DNA of 64,000 nucleotides from Lachnospiraceae bacterium (GCA_021203145.1 JAJQBS010000086.1:8343-72342); one strand, 5' to 3'; numbered from the stretch's first letter, positions 50,919 through 62,191 are shown. Numbers and translations: made by a program. The notes: generated by a model not told the origin, from the sequence alone.

Positions 50919-52128
50919 CTAATTTCCCCGCTCCGCCACAAATGGCTTCAGCTCCTTATACAGCTTCTGGTCATGACCGGCCTGTTGATATTTCTTTTTC
51001 AGATTTAACCTCGGCCTTTCTCCCCTTTGCCGTTGTATCAGGTATCTTCCCAACAACACGAAGGGCACAGCCGGCATCAAAACCGCATGCTTCTCGCACG
51101 GGGGCCAATGCTCCCTGCAGGCACTCCCCAACACCTTGATAAAGCTGGTAACTCTATTCGAAGAATATGGATCATTAAATAACCGTTCCCCGTATTTTTC
51201 AACCTTTCTCCCAAAGTTTCCTTCTTTCAGTATCTGGTCTATCACTTTTTGCGCCGTTTCACTGTCATACCGCATCGCCCAGGGCGCATTTTCTTCCGGC
51301 AGCCGCAGGTAATCCACACAGGCTCTTGTCATAAGTCCTGTGAAGGTAAGCAGGCCAAACGCCGAAAGCTGCGGCTGCAGCTTTGCCCACAGGGTGTCAT
51401 CCATCTTTTTTTTCTACAAACACCGCCCAGTCACAAAGCTGCCGCAATCCCAGGCCGCTGGTCGTAAAGTGTTCCAGCTTGTGCAGAATCAAAATAATGG
51501 CCTGATGCTCATCCGACGGAACCGGCAGGCCGTCCATAAACTGCCGTCTGTCGATTGCATCGCTAAAATAATTTCTAATTCTCCCCAGAATTTCAGAGTT
51601 ACCATCAAGGAACAATCCGTTCGGTTCTTTATGAACCTCCACAGCAATCTCGTCCTTGTGCAACGTCATATGACAATGGTGTTTTTCGTCCAGAACATCG
51701 CCATAACCGTTAGCCTGGAGGGCTTTCACGGCCTCCATCTGCTGCTCCGGCCTTACAAGCAAGTCGATGTCGCCCATAATGCGCAGAGACGGTTGTGGAT
51801 AATTGGCAGCTGATGAACTGCCTTTCAGTATCACGCAGGGAATGGACGCCGCAGTAAGGAGCTGTATCACCTGCTCCTGCTCATACAGGAGCTGCTCATT
51901 GTTCATGATATGCCGGAACGAATCCTGCTCCCAGCGAATCCCCACATCATCAGGGACGGAGCCCCGTTCCTCATCAGAAAGCGTATCCCAGATCAGAAGC
52001 GAAAGCGCCTGATTTGACGCCTCATGATAAAGAGCGGACCAGTCCACAGCGGATGGTTCAAAATCCGCAGGTGTGCCAAATAAAGCCCTGCCCGTAAGCT
52101 GTAATAAGGCCTTTTCTGTTTTGTTCAT
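50919..52128 (-). pseudogene. Nucleotidyltransferase (NTP_transf_5 type) split by a +1 frameshift in an A8 run
   Basis: ILKGSS..YPQPSLRIMGDIDLLV, EVH, GLRQLCDW; 8 T on the + strand at 51406-51413; removing one base joins ...VEKK-MDDTLW into a single ORF. Confidence 0.8.
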
Positions 52129-52213
52129 TCGGATGCACCTCCCTTACGCAACGCATATAATACCGATCACCCTTAAGCCCTTAACCCATAAGTTTCTAAC
52201 CCTTAAGCTCCAT

Positions 52214-60800: not shown

Positions 60801-62191
60801 ATCGAAGTTCCGCTGGCAACGGTTACTGATCCGGTAACACTGCCGCCTTCTACTGTGAGGCTTGCGGCTCCTTTGGTCGTTGTCAATGTCAGGTCTGCCG
60901 CAACGCTGCCACCGTCAGCTACGACGTAAGTGTAACGGAGCGAGTTGCTGACTTCCCAGTTGGTGGATTCACTGGTGATTTGGTTATTGCTGTTGAAGAC
61001 GATTTTGAAATTCGCTATGTTTTTCAACGCACCACCGTTGGGATTTGTTGCATAGTTGCATCCGGTTAGCGTAACGGTTGAATTGCCGTCGTTGTCATAA
61101 ACAACCACACCGCCACTCTGATTCGTGATGTTGCAGTTCGTCAATGAAATCGTTGCCGTACCGTCTGCCGCCACATGCAGGAAGTTTGCGGCAATACTGT
61201 TGCTGTCAAATGTTACATTCTCCGCTGTGAAGGAGCAGGTACCGCGCAGGATGTTGAACTGGTTGCCTGTTGAAGTAGCGTCGTCCGCAATCTTCACAGT
61301 TCCGTTCTTAATGGTCAGAGAACCGCCATCCAGAATGCCGAACACACGGGTAGTGTTCACAGTAAGCGTGGAGTTATTCAGATCAAGCGTGACATTGGTA
61401 CTCACCTGATACAAACCGTTTGCGCTGTATTCACCATCAGTAACCGTCAGATCGCCGGTCAAGGTAATTGTAGCACCTGATGTTGCTGCCGCAAACGCCG
61501 CCGCAAGTGTGCCATATCTGGTATTATTGATTTTTGCAACTACTGCTGTGTCTTCTGTTTCCTTTTCAGCCTCATCCGTTGCTTCGACCGTTTCAAGGGT
61601 ATCATCTACGGTTTCTCCGGAATATGTGGTATCATCCCCGCTTCCGGAGACATCCGCTTCCTCGGAGACCGCTGTAGCACTGGCTGCTGTAACCGATGTA
61701 GATGAAATCGTAAGAGTACCACCGGATTCATCCGCAGCAGCTTCCGTAAGTTCCTCGGTCTCGTCTGATTCTTCCGCTTCCTCAGACTCGGTCTCGTCCG
61801 TTTCTTCCTCCACAGCTGCATCAGTATCTGTGGTCTCCTCCGCCGTGCTTTCAGTCGTCTCTTCGCCAGAAGCATCCTCTGTCTCGGAGGCTTCTGTGTC
61901 CTCGGTCGATGTGGAATCACCAGATTCTTCCGTAACAGCTTCTGTAAGCTCGGTTTCATCCGCAACATCTTCCGACTCGGTTTCGTCTGCCTCTTCCGAC
62001 TCAGACTTGACGGCATCAGCTTCTTCGCCCGCAGTTACACCAGAATCCGTCGACTCTTCCGTTGTGCTTTCAGTCATCACTTCGCCGGAGACATCCGTAT
62101 CCGCCGCAAGCACCGGGGTAGCGGTCAAGGTGAATACCATCGCCAGTGACAAAAGCAGGCTCAACAGACGTTTTGACTTTCGCTTTGTCAT
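57878..62191 (-). CDS. Large secreted/surface protein (1437 aa): signal peptide, acidic linker, beta-helix-like repeats, distinct C-terminal domain
   Basis: GGAGG RBS; signal peptide ending TPVLA; three VAKIxxTxYxTLxxAxxAA-type units; many GGT(F/V/I) repeats; no LPXTG, SLH or C-terminal TM seen. Confidence 0.85.
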   Translation of the reverse strand: MTKRKSKRLLSLLLSLAMVFTLTATPVLAADTDVSGEVMTESTTEESTDSGVTAGEEADAVKSESEEADETESEDVADETELTEAVTEESGDSTSTEDTEASETEDASGEETTESTAEETTDTDAAVEEETDETESEEAEESDETEELTEAAADESGGTLTISSTSVTAASATAVSEEADVSGSGDDTTYSGETVDDTLETVEATDEAEKETEDTAVVAKINNTRYGTLAAAFAAATSGATITLTGDLTVTDGEYSANGLYQVSTNVTLDLNNSTLTVNTTRVFGILDGGSLTIKNGTVKIADDATSTGNQFNILRGTCSFTAENVTFDSNSIAANFLHVAADGTATISLTNCNITNQSGGVVVYDNDGNSTVTLTGCNYATNPNGGALKNIANFKIVFNSNNQITSESTNWEVSNSLRYTYVVADGGSVAADLTLTTTKGAASLTVEGGSVTGSVTVASGTSMTVSGGTVTGAITTSGTFTMTGGTVTASSSASQAVLVKGGTVNISGGTISASSSRALVFDTDVTVSGSISGGTFTGYDIALLARSSENNTVSVTGGTYTATKGIDLVASILADGYGVFDTKGDAATVSGNYYISSLDDKTVWVGAGVAKVGDTLYSTLQSAINAATSGDTVTLLTNVEEDVVVESGKTIILNLAGYSITADNSHAIANYGTLTIEDSSATTATEESEAVAGTGKVIATVGSTAALYNQGEVILNGGTFSRGSGTWYTIVNEGSNSKMIFNTGVTVETSPEVDNNSSMIRNYGGTMTVNGGTFISDCLSCIKNEPDSILTINGGIIKNLAEGASSKQGAIINAGTVTVNGGTIYSYSSAIFGTSSSYPGIVSINGGTFYNLRTAVASSLIGSYQYNANTNTQNCYITGGTFTGYSVYPKYLASTEYSLLFDGDYNGELSNRIFTVAEDVSGWSYEAMRETTYGTVYFTDADNAFNTTYFSGYSGTIYLYAALDEVTDVKVNTTGYTLVLMENELSTEAQSYTSHFACYGSTGYELLSTTDTVTYDEKEYNTVTVYQGVTKESANASITIGENTTYYATLSAAVTAANSMDLDGSETITVKALNDHTYSTAMIPTVSMTIDLNGCTYTSTSSTGTIKVATSGITVTVVDSSESKAGALYRQTSTVKLCTVSAGTLELTSGTYTGTFAGVTTGTLEISGGTYTSDPTSYLAGGCYVVTNDNSTYTVEQLVLGASGDNGETTTSVSVNATSIANYGTGSIYVGVSSSDISKYGTTNYPTTDLTYTPTEGSSDSGSYIFAGWFTLDEDGGYTACSNKMWSRSDTDTTYYAMFVDANTLSVSCFFTPYDEKNALRFFTSQAFVYADAGFNLYINGTLVENAITSVTYHTSSYKVCGTSSSPVATFMPSTFSSSATAVVTGRYYDTSKATSFSVVPYWTTQDGTTIYGTETAFSCSDGTTQTVLTSTTDED

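What the first reader, a model, noticed from the sequence alone, without database searches (positions are those of the whole stretch)
50919..62191. Candidate new RRE-dependent peptide system: 10-gene acidic peptide library plus kinase, nucleotidyltransferase, S26-ABC fusion and a linked surface protein
Seen: nine tandem 39-43-aa ORFs (55232-56575), each with its own RBS, plus a decayed copy and a solo copy. All nine have Tyr2, a hydrophobic residue at 7 and 9, aromatic 12 and acidic 13. Cores are variable and D/E/G/S-rich, and most have a near-C-terminal Pro followed by an acidic tail. Co-oriented neighbours: PqqD/RRE, S24/S26 peptidase-ABC exporter, nucleotidyltransferase, HPr-kinase-like enzyme and a 1437-aa secreted protein. 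Known: RRE plus kinase plus nucleotidyltransferase occurs in paeninodin/pseudomycoidin-type lasso clusters, where a Ser is phosphorylated and further decorated. Absent here: lasso cyclase, transglutaminase-like B2 protease and radical SAM. Inference: linear, leader-cleaved, phosphorylated/nucleotidylated peptides exported as a diversified library. Their strong acidity argues against membrane-active bacteriocins and towards surface assembly, mineral or metal binding, or signalling.
Basis: partly seen in the sequence, partly recalled or inferred. Interest (0 to 1): 0.95.

Follow-up and report, generated by a model that had tools for sequence, protein, structure and literature searches.

The report
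Clostridial linear phosphopeptide (LPP-like) gene cluster
This is a real gene cluster for small, ribosomally made, probably phosphorylated and exported acidic peptides; its kind was first described in Bacilli in 2026, and this gut-Clostridia version is unusual for ten precursor genes, a protease fused to the exporter, and a peptide gene tucked behind a large surface-protein gene.

Summary
Ten co-oriented 39-43-aa ORFs (nine tandem, one solo) share the leader MYxKHExxVIxF[D/E] and have variable, strongly acidic cores. They sit with a PqqD-type recognition protein (RRE), an HPr-kinase-fold protein, a PF14907 nucleotidyltransferase split by a frameshift in an A8 run, and a SipW/Sec11-type serine peptidase fused to an MsbA-like ABC exporter. 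The genome has no lasso cyclase or B2 protease. The "decayed copy" was not detected.

The system is not new in kind. The same enzyme set defines the "linear polyphosphorylated peptides" (LPP) of Bacilli (Popov et al., Nat Commun 2026, PMC13381572). There the kinase polyphosphorylates a core Ser, and the signal-peptidase-like enzyme removes the leader with help from the RRE.

This locus belongs to an uncharacterised Clostridial branch:
- The kinase has relatives in at least 599 species, and 44 of the 80 best loci also carry both RRE and peptidase.
- The RRE and peptidase are divergent, and the leader is shorter, with His in place of Pro.
- The peptidase-exporter fusion is rare, forming a single 50%-identity cluster.
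- It has ten precursors, against one to three elsewhere.
- A precursor gene lies directly behind a large secreted-protein gene, as in eight related loci.

Verdict: new variant of a known kind. Product and biological role remain unknown.

The parts
50919..51404 (-). C-terminal half of the PF14907 nucleotidyltransferase (LppN/PsmN-like), 161 aa
   Evidence: Matches positions 251-382 of a profile built from 18 full-length cluster-associated transferases, E 1.6e-8. No Pfam hit on its own.
51397..52128 (-). N-terminal half of the PF14907 nucleotidyltransferase, 243 aa, with the GS...DxD motif (GDIDLLV) intact
   Evidence: PF14907, 2.5e-42. Matches profile positions 10-245. 24-29% identical to the 403-455-aa intact relatives in L002, L059 and L088.
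51406..51413 (-). A8 homopolymer where the transferase reading frame breaks (VEKKDG*). One A fewer would give one ~404-aa protein.
   Evidence: Read directly from the sequence. No public reads could be found to decide between a real mutation and an assembly error.
52214..54529 (-). SipW/Sec11-type S26B serine peptidase domain (about residues 32-140) fused to an MsbA-like ABC exporter (TMD+NBD), 771 aa. Proposed leader peptidase plus export pump (LppS+LppD in one chain).
   Evidence: ABC_membrane 1e-27, ABC_tran 2e-25, MsbA TIGR02203 1e-69. The N-domain aligns with LppS: S51/H90 match catalytic S29/H68, D105 matches the invariant GD(N) Asp, and E111 matches LppS D93. S51, H90, D105 and E111 are invariant in 29 fusion homologues. 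An S26 profile hits human SEC11C/A at 3e-11. BLASTP gives 9e-7 to LppS and 5e-15 to a Ruminococcus SpI. Foldseek top hit for the whole chain is PCAT1.
54571..54855 (-). Discrete PqqD-type RiPP recognition element (RRE), 94 aa
   Evidence: PF05402, 1.9e-12. Weak hits to lasso and GeoRSP PqqD chaperone models. 32% identical (5e-17) to the Anaerocolumna RRE that the LPP paper lists under 'RRE others'. No BLAST match to LppB.
55032..55072 (-). Strong stem-loop ending the nine-gene array (terminator, attenuator or mRNA-stabilising hairpin)
   Evidence: dG -36 kcal/mol, z -6.6. 93% identical to the hairpin at 57670-57710. 92-97% identical copies follow precursor genes in L002, L003 and L089.
55232..56575 (-). 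Array of nine precursor-peptide genes: I 55232-55357, H 55374-55496, G 55549-55680, F 55699-55818, E 55832-55960, D 55974-56096, C 56111-56242, B 56286-56417, A 56447-56575
   Evidence: ORFs and RBSs. HMM hits at 1e-10 to 1e-16. Leader residues 1-14 average 48% pairwise identity, the rest 26%. Orthologous peptides occur in L002, L006-L009 and L089.
56792..56903 (.). One arm of a 112-nt inverted repeat (80% complementary); function unknown
   Evidence: There are only two copies in the genome, both in this locus.
56943..57647 (-). HPr-kinase-fold P-loop protein (Pfam ScmC family PF27840), the LppK/PadeK-like peptide Ser kinase candidate, 234 aa from GTG
   Evidence: TIGR04249 2e-7, TIGR04352 and TIGR04355; the LPP paper groups these same models as 'HprK kinase'. 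AF2 model pLDDT 95.7. Foldseek top hits are L. casei HprK/P 1KKL/1KKM at 6e-6. The Walker A motif GGTGKST is invariant.
57670..57710 (-). Second copy of the conserved stem-loop, after the solo peptide and about 20 nt before the kinase start
   Evidence: dG -34.8, z -6.3.
57737..57865 (-). Solo precursor peptide K (42 aa). Its start lies 12 nt after the stop codon of the big secreted protein.
   Evidence: Its core resembles peptide E and the L008 peptide that also follows a big-protein gene.
57878..62191 (-). 1437-aa secreted protein: Sec signal peptide, ~190-aa E/T/S/D-rich linker, T/G/S-rich repeats, distinct C-terminal ~300 aa. Conserved upstream partner of a precursor gene; function unknown.
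   Evidence: No Pfam, NCBIfam or PDB match. Homologues with the same signal peptide sit directly upstream of a family peptide in L006-L009, L059 and L089, and other large secreted proteins do so in L010 and L016.
62415..62526 (.). Second arm of the 112-nt inverted repeat, upstream of the big gene and next to IS66 transposase fragments

Best explanation
The locus is a biosynthetic gene cluster for ribosomally made, post-translationally modified linear peptides. It is of the LPP type (linear polyphosphorylated peptide) and belongs to an uncharacterised Clostridial branch.

Proposed pathway:
1. Ten precursors are made in excess. The array and the solo gene each end in a conserved strong hairpin.
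2. The discrete PqqD-type RRE binds the N-terminal leader through the motif Y-x-x-[H/P]-x-[L/M]-x-[V/I]-[I/V], as an added beta-strand.
3. The HPr-kinase-fold enzyme phosphorylates a Ser of the bound precursor, possibly several times. Candidate sites are the Ser after the hydrophobic patch (residues about 21-26, matching the ...DVITTS Ser of relatives) or the Ser/Thr at -3 from the C-terminus in the ...P[D/E]x[S/T]D-x tail.
4. The PF14907 transferase would decorate the phosphate, as PsmN adds hexoses in pseudomycoidin. Here it is split by a frameshift, so this step may be lost or phase-variable.
5. The cytoplasmic Ser/His S26B domain, fused to the N-terminus of the MsbA-like exporter, removes the leader in an RRE-dependent way. 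By homology to LppA F-3/E-2/T-1, cleavage would follow F/Y12-[D/E]13-x14. The same protein then exports the acidic core. This is a serine-protease counterpart of C39 peptidase-containing ABC transporters.

Shown here: the gene content, the folds and catalytic residues, the conservation, and the absence of lasso enzymes.

Inferred from the published LPP, paeninodin and pseudomycoidin work: phosphorylation, RRE dependence, the cleavage site, and export.
For: Same enzyme set as LPP: peptidase, RRE, HprK-like kinase, NTP_transf_5 and MsbA-like pump.
- In LPP, the kinase polyphosphorylates core Ser3 and LppS (S29/H68/D93) cleaves only with the RRE (PMC13381572).
- PqqD and PF14907 are present.
- The kinase model best matches the HprK/P fold at 6e-6 and hits the same TIGRFAMs that the paper groups as HprK kinase.
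- In the S26 domain, S51 and H90 align with LppS S29 and H68; D105 (the GDN Asp) and E111 (aligned with LppS D93) are also invariant in 29 homologues, and the profile hits SEC11 at 3e-11.
- PsmN-type transferases add hexose to the phospho-Ser (PMC6993621).

Leader: it aligns with relatives carrying FxxPxFxLIxF (L006, L007, L009) and with the wider Clostridial consensus [Y/F]xx[P/A/H]x[hydrophobic]E[V/I][I/V]xF[D/E/N]xxDVITTS. This resembles the LPP motif YxxPxVLxHQxIxFET.

Conserved module: of the 80 best species loci, 52 have PqqD, 46 have the peptidase and 44 have both.

No lasso enzymes: the 95%-complete genome has no PF13471 and only a 22.8-bit partial PF00733 hit.

The peptides are coding: non-synonymous difference 18% against synonymous 75%.

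Topology: six TM helices follow one pre-TM helix, ABC_membrane covers residues 194-465, there is no N-terminal TM segment, and the overall layout is PCAT1-like.
Against: - There are no transcript, peptide or mass-spectrometry data for this organism, and no public reads could be found.
- The RRE shows no BLAST similarity to LppB. The peptidase is only 29% identical to LppS over 56 residues.
- The leader is three residues shorter than the LPP motif, His replaces the Pro that matters for LppB binding, and it starts directly at Met-Tyr.
- There is no conserved Ser at core position 3. Peptide I has no Ser, and its only Thr is at position 14.
- The transferase is interrupted.
- The 320-aa membrane protein that follows the fusion gene in L006, L008, L088, L089 and L090 is absent from this genome.
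- Close relatives L007 and L009 pair the same kinase, RRE and peptide with a radical SAM enzyme instead of the peptidase-ABC. The kinase-fold protein may therefore serve more than one chemistry.
- The S26 domain was poorly modelled by AlphaFold (pLDDT 40-77).
Confidence: 0.75

Rival explanations
1. Ordinary lasso peptides: the precursors are cyclised by a lasso cyclase and B2 protease encoded elsewhere, with the kinase and transferase as tailoring enzymes, as in paeninodin and pseudomycoidin.
For: The leader motif, RRE, HprK-like kinase and PF14907 transferase are all typical of paeninodin-type clusters. The genome is only 95% complete.
Against: The genome has no PF13471 (B2) hit and only a 22.8-bit partial PF00733 hit on another contig. 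A dedicated S26 leader peptidase is present instead. Several cores lack an Asp/Glu at positions 7-9 from any plausible N-terminus (peptides B, F, H; read). The LPP work shows this gene set makes linear products.
Confidence: 0.03
2. A decaying or silent cluster: recently acquired, with the transferase broken and next to IS66 debris, so the peptides are no longer matured or the array is not expressed.
For: - The transferase has a frameshift at an A8 run.
- Disrupted IS66 transposase ORFs lie 500 nt upstream.
- GC content falls to about 0.43-0.46 across the array, kinase and much of the big gene, against about 0.50-0.53 in the flanks.
- The distribution is patchy: 5 of 151 genera in the family.
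- The conserved 320-aa partner protein is missing.
Against: - All ten peptide ORFs, the RRE, the kinase and the 771-aa fusion are intact, with catalytic residues in place.
- In LPP, deleting the transferase did not change the detected phosphorylated, cleaved products.
- The frameshift may be an assembly error or a phase-variable tract.
- The peptides show purifying selection.
Confidence: 0.1
3. The kinase-fold (ScmC-family) protein is not a peptide kinase here. It acts as a scaffold or performs another reaction, and the exported peptides are unmodified or differently modified.
For: Sequence similarity to characterised kinases is remote: TIGR04249 scores 30.6 bits against a cut-off of 125, and a profile search finds no HprK among PDB sequences. 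The same family accompanies radical SAM enzymes in L007 and L009 and in SynChlorMet cassettes. Peptide I has no Ser and only one Thr, at position 14.
Against: The confident model has the HprK/P fold. The Walker A Lys/Thr and other polar residues are invariant across 37 homologues. All characterised RiPP-associated members (PadeK, PsmK, LppK) are Ser kinases.
Confidence: 0.1

Closest known systems
LPP (linear polyphosphorylated peptide) clusters, lppA-K-B-S-D-N of Paenibacillus alginolyticus and other Bacilli (Popov et al., Nat Commun 2026;17:6633, PMC13381572)
   Same: - Same functional parts list: SipW-like Ser/His leader peptidase, discrete RRE, HprK-like kinase, PF14907 transferase, MsbA-like exporter.
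- No cyclase.
- Precursors with a conserved N-terminal [Y]xx[P]-type leader ending in F-E/D-x and a variable core.
- Patchy distribution consistent with horizontal transfer.
   Different: - Found in Clostridia rather than Bacilli.
- The peptidase is fused to the exporter.
- The RRE and peptidase fall with the paper's uncharacterised 'RRE others' and SSN clusters 4 and 9, not the LPP clade.
- The leader is 3 aa shorter, with His at the Pro position and no conserved core Ser3.
- Ten precursors of 39-43 aa, against 1-3 of 35-200 aa.
- Cores are strongly acidic rather than G/N/P/K-rich.
- The cluster sits next to a large secreted-protein gene rather than a capsule locus.
- No adjacent lasso cluster.
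Paeninodin- and pseudomycoidin-type phosphorylated or phosphoglycosylated lasso peptide clusters (PadeK, PsmK, PsmN)
   Same: RRE, HprK-like Ser kinase, PF14907 transferase, ABC exporter, a [Y/W]xxP-like leader, and acidic C-terminal tails with Ser near the end.
   Different: No lasso cyclase and no B2 cysteine protease in the genome. The leader is removed by a serine peptidase, and the products are expected to be linear.
Peptidase-containing ABC transporters (PCATs, e.g. PCAT1, ComA, LagD) with an N-terminal C39 cysteine peptidase
   Same: An N-terminal cytoplasmic leader peptidase fused to a type-IV ABC exporter would couple cleavage to export. PCAT1 is the top whole-chain structural match.
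   Different: The peptidase is an S26B Ser/His domain, not C39. The leader has no double-glycine motif. Recognition is expected to need a separate RRE.
SipW (B. subtilis ER/archaeal-type signal peptidase for TasA and TapA) and Sec11
   Same: S26B fold and Ser/His(/Asp) catalytic residues.
   Different: There is no N-terminal membrane anchor, so the domain is expected to face the cytoplasm. The substrates are RRE-bound leaders, not Sec signal peptides.
SpI-ABC fusions with an RRE in Bacteroidota (SSN cluster 8 in Suppl. Data 1 of PMC13381572; uncharacterised)
   Same: Same fused architecture, with an adjacent PqqD-type RRE.
   Different: Only 26% identity in the peptidase domain (5e-4), and a different phylum. 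The fusion probably arose independently or is very old.

Membership tests
LPP (linear polyphosphorylated peptide) RiPP clusters | SipW-like archaeal-type signal peptidase I with a Ser/His/Asp catalytic set as leader peptidase | tested here: met
   S51 and H90 align with LppS S29 and H68. D105 is the invariant GD(N) Asp, and E111 occupies the LppS D93 column (Asp to Glu). All four are invariant in 29 homologues. The profile hits SEC11 at 3e-11. The domain is fused to the exporter.
LPP (linear polyphosphorylated peptide) RiPP clusters | Discrete RRE of the LppB clade | tested here: not met
   A discrete PqqD RRE is present (PF05402, 2e-12). It has no BLAST similarity to LppB and is 32% identical to a cluster-4 RRE that the paper lists under 'RRE others'. 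No phylogeny was made.
LPP (linear polyphosphorylated peptide) RiPP clusters | HprK-like kinase | tested here: met
   Foldseek top hit is HprK/P at 6e-6 on a pLDDT 95.7 model. The protein hits TIGR04249, TIGR04352 and TIGR04355, the models the paper groups as HprK kinase. Activity was not tested.
LPP (linear polyphosphorylated peptide) RiPP clusters | PF14907 NTP transferase and MsbA-like exporter in the cluster | tested here: met
   PF14907, 2.5e-42, but split in two by a frameshift. MsbA model TIGR02203, 1e-69.
LPP (linear polyphosphorylated peptide) RiPP clusters | Precursor leader motif YxxPxVLxHQxIxFET / Px9Fx[T/A], with Ser at core position 3 | tested here: not met
   The window leader is YxxHx[L/M]x[V/I][I]x[F/Y][D/E]x. 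The spacing from the P position to F is 7, not 10. His, Phe, Leu or Tyr stands at the Pro position. There is no conserved Ser3. The motif is related but does not match.
LPP (linear polyphosphorylated peptide) RiPP clusters | Product is a linear peptide carrying (poly)phosphate on Ser, with the leader removed in an RRE-dependent manner | not testable with these tools
   Needs expression and mass spectrometry.
Lasso peptides (paeninodin type) | Asn-synthetase-like macrolactam cyclase (C) and transglutaminase-like B2 protease | tested here: not met
   PF13471 gives 0 hits. PF00733 gives only a 22.8-bit partial hit on contig C53 of the 95%-complete genome.
Peptidase-containing ABC transporters (PCAT, C39) | N-terminal C39 cysteine peptidase domain and a double-glycine leader | tested here: not met
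   No C39 Pfam hit; the N-domain is S26-like. The leaders have no GG/GA motif. The locus probably works like a PCAT but is not a member.
SynChlorMet cassette (ScmC with ScmE/F radical SAM enzymes) | ScmC equivalog score and adjacent rSAM/SPASM enzymes | tested here: not met
   TIGR04249 scores 30.6 bits against a cut-off of 125. There is no radical SAM gene in the cluster.

The most novel reading that the evidence does not exclude
The exported (phospho)peptides may be dedicated partners of the co-encoded large secreted protein rather than free bacteriocins or signals.

Grounds:
- In nine Clostridial loci a precursor gene starts within 18 nt of the stop codon of a 545-1437-aa secreted-protein gene. 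This holds even where the big proteins are not detectably homologous.
- Peptide type tracks the type of the big protein's C-terminal domain.
- Unchecked earlier notes of this scan report the same adjacency in Bacteroidota.

One reading is that the peptide, once matured and exported by the RRE, kinase and peptidase-ABC machinery, binds, caps or anchors the surface protein, or links it to wall polymers. The nine-gene acidic array of this genome would then be a diversified set of such ligands, or of cation-binding phosphopeptides.
Probability: 0.12. Interest if true: 0.8.

Novelty: new variant of a known kind. Interest (0 to 1): 0.5.

Why it matters
LPP-type peptides were described only in 2026. 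Their final structures and biological role are still unknown, and the published work is centred on Bacilli. This locus adds four things:

- **Abundance in gut and rumen Clostridia.** Relatives of the kinase occur in at least 599 species-representative genomes, and most of the best loci also carry the RRE and peptidase. The precursor family there ([Y/F]xx[P/A/H]x..E[V/I][I/V]xF..DVITTS) has no curated model.
- **A natural peptidase-exporter fusion.** It argues that the signal-peptidase-like enzyme works on the cytoplasmic face, coupled to export. That makes it a serine-protease counterpart of PCATs and a compact two-in-one part for peptide engineering.
- **A tenfold precursor expansion with hypervariable acidic cores.** One organism offers ten natural substrates for defining the kinase site and the cleavage rules.
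- **A clue to function.** The recurrent placement of a precursor gene directly behind a large secreted-protein gene is a testable hint about what these peptides are for.

None of this overturns current understanding. It extends a very recent discovery.

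Tried and rejected
- **Decayed eleventh copy.** A six-frame, stop-to-stop HMM scan of 54500-58100 found none.
- **Trans lasso enzymes.** PF00733 and PF13471 scans of the whole genome were negative.
- **Further peptide, RRE, kinase or peptidase copies in the genome.** None found.
- **Rfam families in 50000-64000.** Nothing meaningful.
- **NCBIfam models for the precursors.** None exist.
- **Literature search for the DVITTS motif.** No papers.
- **PDB sequence searches.** The RRE gave no RRE hit; 9X8Z and 9X90 were apparently not matched. The kinase profile gave only P-loop noise, so I used a structure prediction and Foldseek instead. The big protein gave no hits.
- **Public reads or RNA runs** to test the A8 frameshift and expression. 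None are served.
- **AlphaFold of the whole fusion** to place the peptidase domain. The N-domain confidence was too low (pLDDT 40-77) to read its position. The topology argument therefore rests on helix count and the absence of an N-terminal TM segment.
- **The 112-nt inverted repeat as a multi-copy mobile element.** Rejected: only two copies exist, both in this locus, and none in related loci. It remains unexplained.
- **'Resolvase remnant'** (from an earlier first-reader note). The adjacent ORFs are IS66 transposase fragments.
- **Promoter scan.** No enrichment over shuffles.

Full report
**1. What is in the sequence**

All relevant genes are on the minus strand. In the direction of transcription the order is:

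| Element | Coordinates | Notes |
|---|---|---|
| Secreted protein, 1437 aa | 62191-57878 | Signal peptide MTKRKSKRLLSLLLSLAMVFTLTATPVLA, an E/T/S/D-rich linker, then T/G/S-rich repeats |
| Peptide K, 42 aa | 57865-57737 | Starts 12 nt after the big gene's stop codon |
| Strong hairpin | 57710-57670 | |
| P-loop protein, 234 aa | 57647-56943 | Kinase candidate |
| Spacer, 367 nt | | Contains one arm of a 112-nt inverted repeat |
| Nine tandem peptide genes A-I | 56575-55232 | |
| Same hairpin again | 55072-55032 | |
| PqqD protein, 94 aa | 54855-54571 | RRE |
| Peptidase-ABC protein, 771 aa | 54529-52214 | |
| PF14907 nucleotidyltransferase | 52128-51397 and 51404-50919 | Two overlapping ORFs |

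Each peptide gene starts with ATG behind a Shine-Dalgarno-like stretch.

Net charges are -6 to -14. Leader residues 1-14 average 48% pairwise identity and the remainder 26%.

Evidence that this is not chance:
- A regex for the leader hits 10 of 40,398 genomic ORFs, nine of them the array.
- An HMM finds exactly these ten copies in the genome.
- The alleged decayed copy was not found.
- Peptide E and its L008 orthologue differ at 75% of synonymous sites but only 18% of non-synonymous sites. These are coding sequences under constraint.

**2. The enzymes**

*RRE.* The 94-aa protein is a PqqD-family RRE (PF05402, 1.9e-12).

*Kinase candidate.*
- It has no hit in my Pfam copy, but the protein collection labels it PF27840 "ScmC".
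- It weakly hits TIGR04249, TIGR04352 and TIGR04355.
- An AlphaFold model built from 37 homologues has pLDDT 95.7. Its best PDB matches are Lactobacillus casei HPr kinase/phosphatase (1KKL/1KKM, E 6e-6), followed by PEP carboxykinases of the same fold class.
- The Walker A motif and about 24 other residues are invariant.

*Peptidase-ABC fusion.*
- Residues about 190-720 are a complete type-IV ABC exporter (ABC_membrane covers 194-465; MsbA model 1e-69).
- Residues about 32-140 carry GVS51MRP ... LH90RIIG ... RGD105N ... E111.
- Aligned with LppS and other SipW-like peptidases, S51 and H90 fall on the catalytic Ser29 and His68 of LppS. D105 falls on the invariant GD(N) Asp, and E111 on LppS D93.
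- All four residues are invariant in 29 fusion homologues.
- A profile of this alignment hits human SEC11C and SEC11A at 3e-11 and 2e-10. The domain is therefore an ER/archaeal-type S26B peptidase.

*Topology.*
- The domain has no preceding TM segment. The first 31 residues are a Q/S/T-rich repeat.
- It is followed by one helix (143-177) and then six long TM helices.
- It should therefore face the cytoplasm, like the C39 domain of PCATs.
- PCAT1 is the best whole-chain structural match.
- The peptidase domain itself was modelled with low confidence, so this is an inference, not a result.

*Transferase.*
- The N-terminal ORF matches PF14907 (2.5e-42) and keeps the GS...DxD motif.
- Against a profile of 18 full-length cluster-associated homologues, the two ORFs cover positions 10-245 and 251-382.
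- They are therefore halves of one gene, broken in an A8 run (51406-51413).
- No reads were available to check this.

**3. What is absent**

The 95%-complete genome has no transglutaminase-like B2 protease (PF13471). Its only Asn-synthase hit is a 22.8-bit partial match elsewhere. The cluster contains no radical SAM gene. No second copy of any component exists in the genome.

**4. Literature**

The gene set is the one that Popov et al. (Nat Commun 2026;17:6633, PMC13381572) define as LPP clusters. The set is a SipW-like signal peptidase I (LppS), a discrete RRE (LppB), an HprK-like kinase (LppK), an NTP transferase (LppN), an MsbA-like pump (LppD), and 1-3 precursors with the leader YxxPxVLxHQxIxFET.

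In B. subtilis they showed the following:
- Polyphosphorylation of core Ser3 by LppK.
- RRE-dependent leader cleavage after T-1 by LppS (catalytic S29/H68/D93).
- Poor cleavage of the unphosphorylated precursor.
- No detectable activity for LppN.

The final product and the biological role are unknown.

Their kinase group is defined by the same TIGRFAMs that hit the window protein. PsmN, a PF14907 enzyme, is required for adding one or two hexoses to phospho-Ser in pseudomycoidin (PMC6993621).

Their Supplementary Data 1 lists further, unstudied peptidase groups with RREs:
- cluster 4: Desulfitobacteriaceae and Anaerocolumna;
- cluster 9: Ruminococcus;
- cluster 8: Bacteroidota peptidase-ABC fusions of 743-747 aa.

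How the window proteins compare:

| Window protein | Compared with | Result |
|---|---|---|
| RRE | cluster-4 RRE | 32% identical, 5e-17 |
| RRE | LppB | no match |
| Peptidase domain | cluster-9 peptidase | 32% identical, 5e-15 |
| Peptidase domain | LppS | 29% over 56 aa, 9e-7 |
| Peptidase domain | Bacteroidota fusion | 26% identical, 5e-4 |

The locus therefore has the LPP parts list but belongs to a branch that the paper noted and did not study. No other paper describing it was found.

**5. Relatives**

*Kinase.* The kinase family has 2,469 hits in the protein collection, all from Clostridia MAGs.

*The 80 best loci*:
- 52 carry a PqqD gene, 46 an S26-like gene and 44 both. The usual order is kinase, then RRE, then a stand-alone ~150-aa peptidase.
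- 16 also carry the transferase.
- 19 loci are truncated within 1.5 kb of the kinase gene, so these counts are minima.

*Precursors.* Iterating the peptide HMM recovered a precursor family with consensus [Y/F]xx[P/A/H]x[hydrophobic]E[V/I][I/V]xF[D/E/N]xxDV[I/M]T[T/A]S and highly variable cores (acidic, or Cys/Gly-rich). It finds one or two per locus. No NCBIfam model matches these peptides.

*Leader alignment.* The window leader aligns column for column with FEEPEFE[L/V]I..F in L006, L007 and L009. His5 therefore sits at the Pro position of the [Y/W]xxP motif. Relative to LPP, the spacing from this position to the conserved Phe is 7 rather than 10.

*Family-level distribution.* Within the window's own taxonomic family, the narrow peptide model hits 5 of 151 genera. 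The window genome has 10 copies and the others 1-3.

*The fusion.*
- It is confined to a small clade. A word-indexed search found 33 clusters at 90% identity, annotated only as ABC proteins.
- In an exhaustive search of 1.84 billion representatives, the peptidase domain had 1,331 relatives. Nearly all of the best 150 are stand-alone proteins of 140-170 aa, and only one 50%-identity cluster is a full fusion.

*Variation among fusion-clade loci.*
- L006, L008 and L087-L090 usually add a conserved 320-aa membrane protein that this genome lacks.
- L089 and L090 carry a Stealth sugar-1-phosphate transferase inside the cluster. L090 also has glycosyltransferases there, and L089 has polysaccharide-synthesis genes upstream. 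L088 has a Wzz gene just downstream.
- L007 and L009 replace the peptidase-ABC with a radical SAM enzyme.

**6. Regulatory and structural details**

- The 41-nt hairpin after peptide K and after the array is 93% identical between the two copies.
- It folds at -35 to -36 kcal/mol, z about -6.5.
- It recurs at 92-97% identity after precursor genes in L002, L003 and L089, where the coding sequences are far more diverged.
- It probably sets a high precursor-to-enzyme transcript ratio by termination, attenuation or 3' stabilisation. This is an inference.
- A -35/-10-like site with an extended TG (54981-54953) precedes the RRE gene, but the promoter scan as a whole is not enriched.

**7. The surface-protein link**

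A large secreted-protein gene ends within 18 nt of a precursor gene in these loci:
- homologues sharing the signal peptide: the window, L006, L007, L008, L009, L059 and L089;
- other large secreted proteins: L010 and L016.

There are two C-terminal domain types:
- the window type, found in the window, L008 and L089;
- an '...ALY.Y...' type, found in L006, L007, L009, L010, L016 and L059.

Peptide type co-varies with these domain types. That may simply reflect phylogeny.

None of the big proteins has a Pfam, NCBIfam or PDB match.

Earlier unchecked notes of this scan report the same adjacency in Bacteroidota LPP-like loci. I treat that as a lead only.

**8. Most likely mechanism**

Precursors bind the RRE through the N-terminal motif. 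The kinase phosphorylates a Ser. The fused S26 domain removes the leader on the cytoplasmic face, and the ABC part exports the acidic core. The transferase step is absent or phase-variable here.

The following are inferred from the LPP, paeninodin and pseudomycoidin experiments, not shown for this locus:
- phosphorylation and its site;
- RRE dependence;
- the cleavage site, predicted after residue 14 by homology to F-3/E-2/T-1;
- export.

Points that do not fit neatly:
- Peptide I has no Ser, and its only Thr is at position 14.
- There is no conserved Ser3.
- The RRE is very divergent from LppB.

**9. Verdict**

The system is not a new kind: it is a new variant, in an uncharacterised Clostridial branch, of the LPP family published in 2026.

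Its distinguishing features are:
- the peptidase-exporter fusion;
- a ten-member acidic precursor set;
- a shortened YxxH leader;
- the coupling of a precursor gene to a surface-protein gene.

Interest is moderate (0.5). The most novel reading still open is that the peptides are partners of the co-encoded secreted protein. I give that about 12%.

Noticed in passing
window 56792-56903 and 62415-62526: A 112-nt inverted repeat (80% complementary) brackets the block of big protein, peptide K and kinase. It has only these two copies in the genome and none in related loci. Its function is unknown; it could be a duplicated regulatory region or a relic of an inversion.
   Followed up: partly
window 62736-63998: Two ORFs are fragments of an IS66-family transposase (DDE_Tnp_IS66, 4e-39 and 8e-22), i.e. 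a disrupted IS element immediately upstream of the cluster. It is not a resolvase. GC content also falls to about 0.43-0.46 across the array, kinase and much of the big gene, and the cluster is patchily distributed. This suggests horizontal acquisition.
   Followed up: partly
window 54438-54503 and 52241-52368: The peptidase-ABC gene carries in-frame tandem repeats at both ends: 2 x 33 nt giving a Q/S/T-rich N-terminus, and 3 x 39 nt giving VEEMIQ[G/D]KEGKNP x3 at the C-terminus. Both are absent from the homologue consensus and have pLDDT below 50 in the model.
   Followed up: no
window 55032-55072 and 57670-57710; L002 9930-9974; L003 1-41; L089 18368-18404: The hairpin after precursor genes is conserved at 92-97% nucleotide identity across species whose proteins are only about 60-80% identical. 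It looks like a conserved RNA element, not merely a generic terminator.
   Followed up: partly
L007 5059-6585; L009 6019-7425: Close relatives (kinase 73-74% identical) have a 468-508-aa radical SAM enzyme between the precursor and the RRE-kinase pair, and no peptidase-ABC nearby. This points to modular swapping of the class-defining enzyme on a shared RRE-kinase-leader chassis.
   Followed up: partly
L089 8032-9030; L090 4613-5608: Stealth-family (sugar-1-phosphate transferase) genes sit inside fusion-clade clusters. L090 also has glycosyltransferases there. This hints that phospho-sugar decoration or a link to polysaccharide is part of the pathway in relatives.
   Followed up: no
L006 12830-13795; L008 11894-12880; L088, L089 and L090 directly after the fusion gene: A conserved ~320-aa single-TM, coiled-coil-rich protein of unknown function follows the peptidase-ABC gene in five related loci. 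It is absent from the window's genome.
   Followed up: partly
L006 9237-9572; L007 4596-5000; L009 5501-5893: A small membrane-anchored or lipoprotein-like, very acidic protein of 111-134 aa, ending in ...[F/L]PI[I/V]P, follows the precursor gene in three relatives. There is no counterpart in the window.
   Followed up: no
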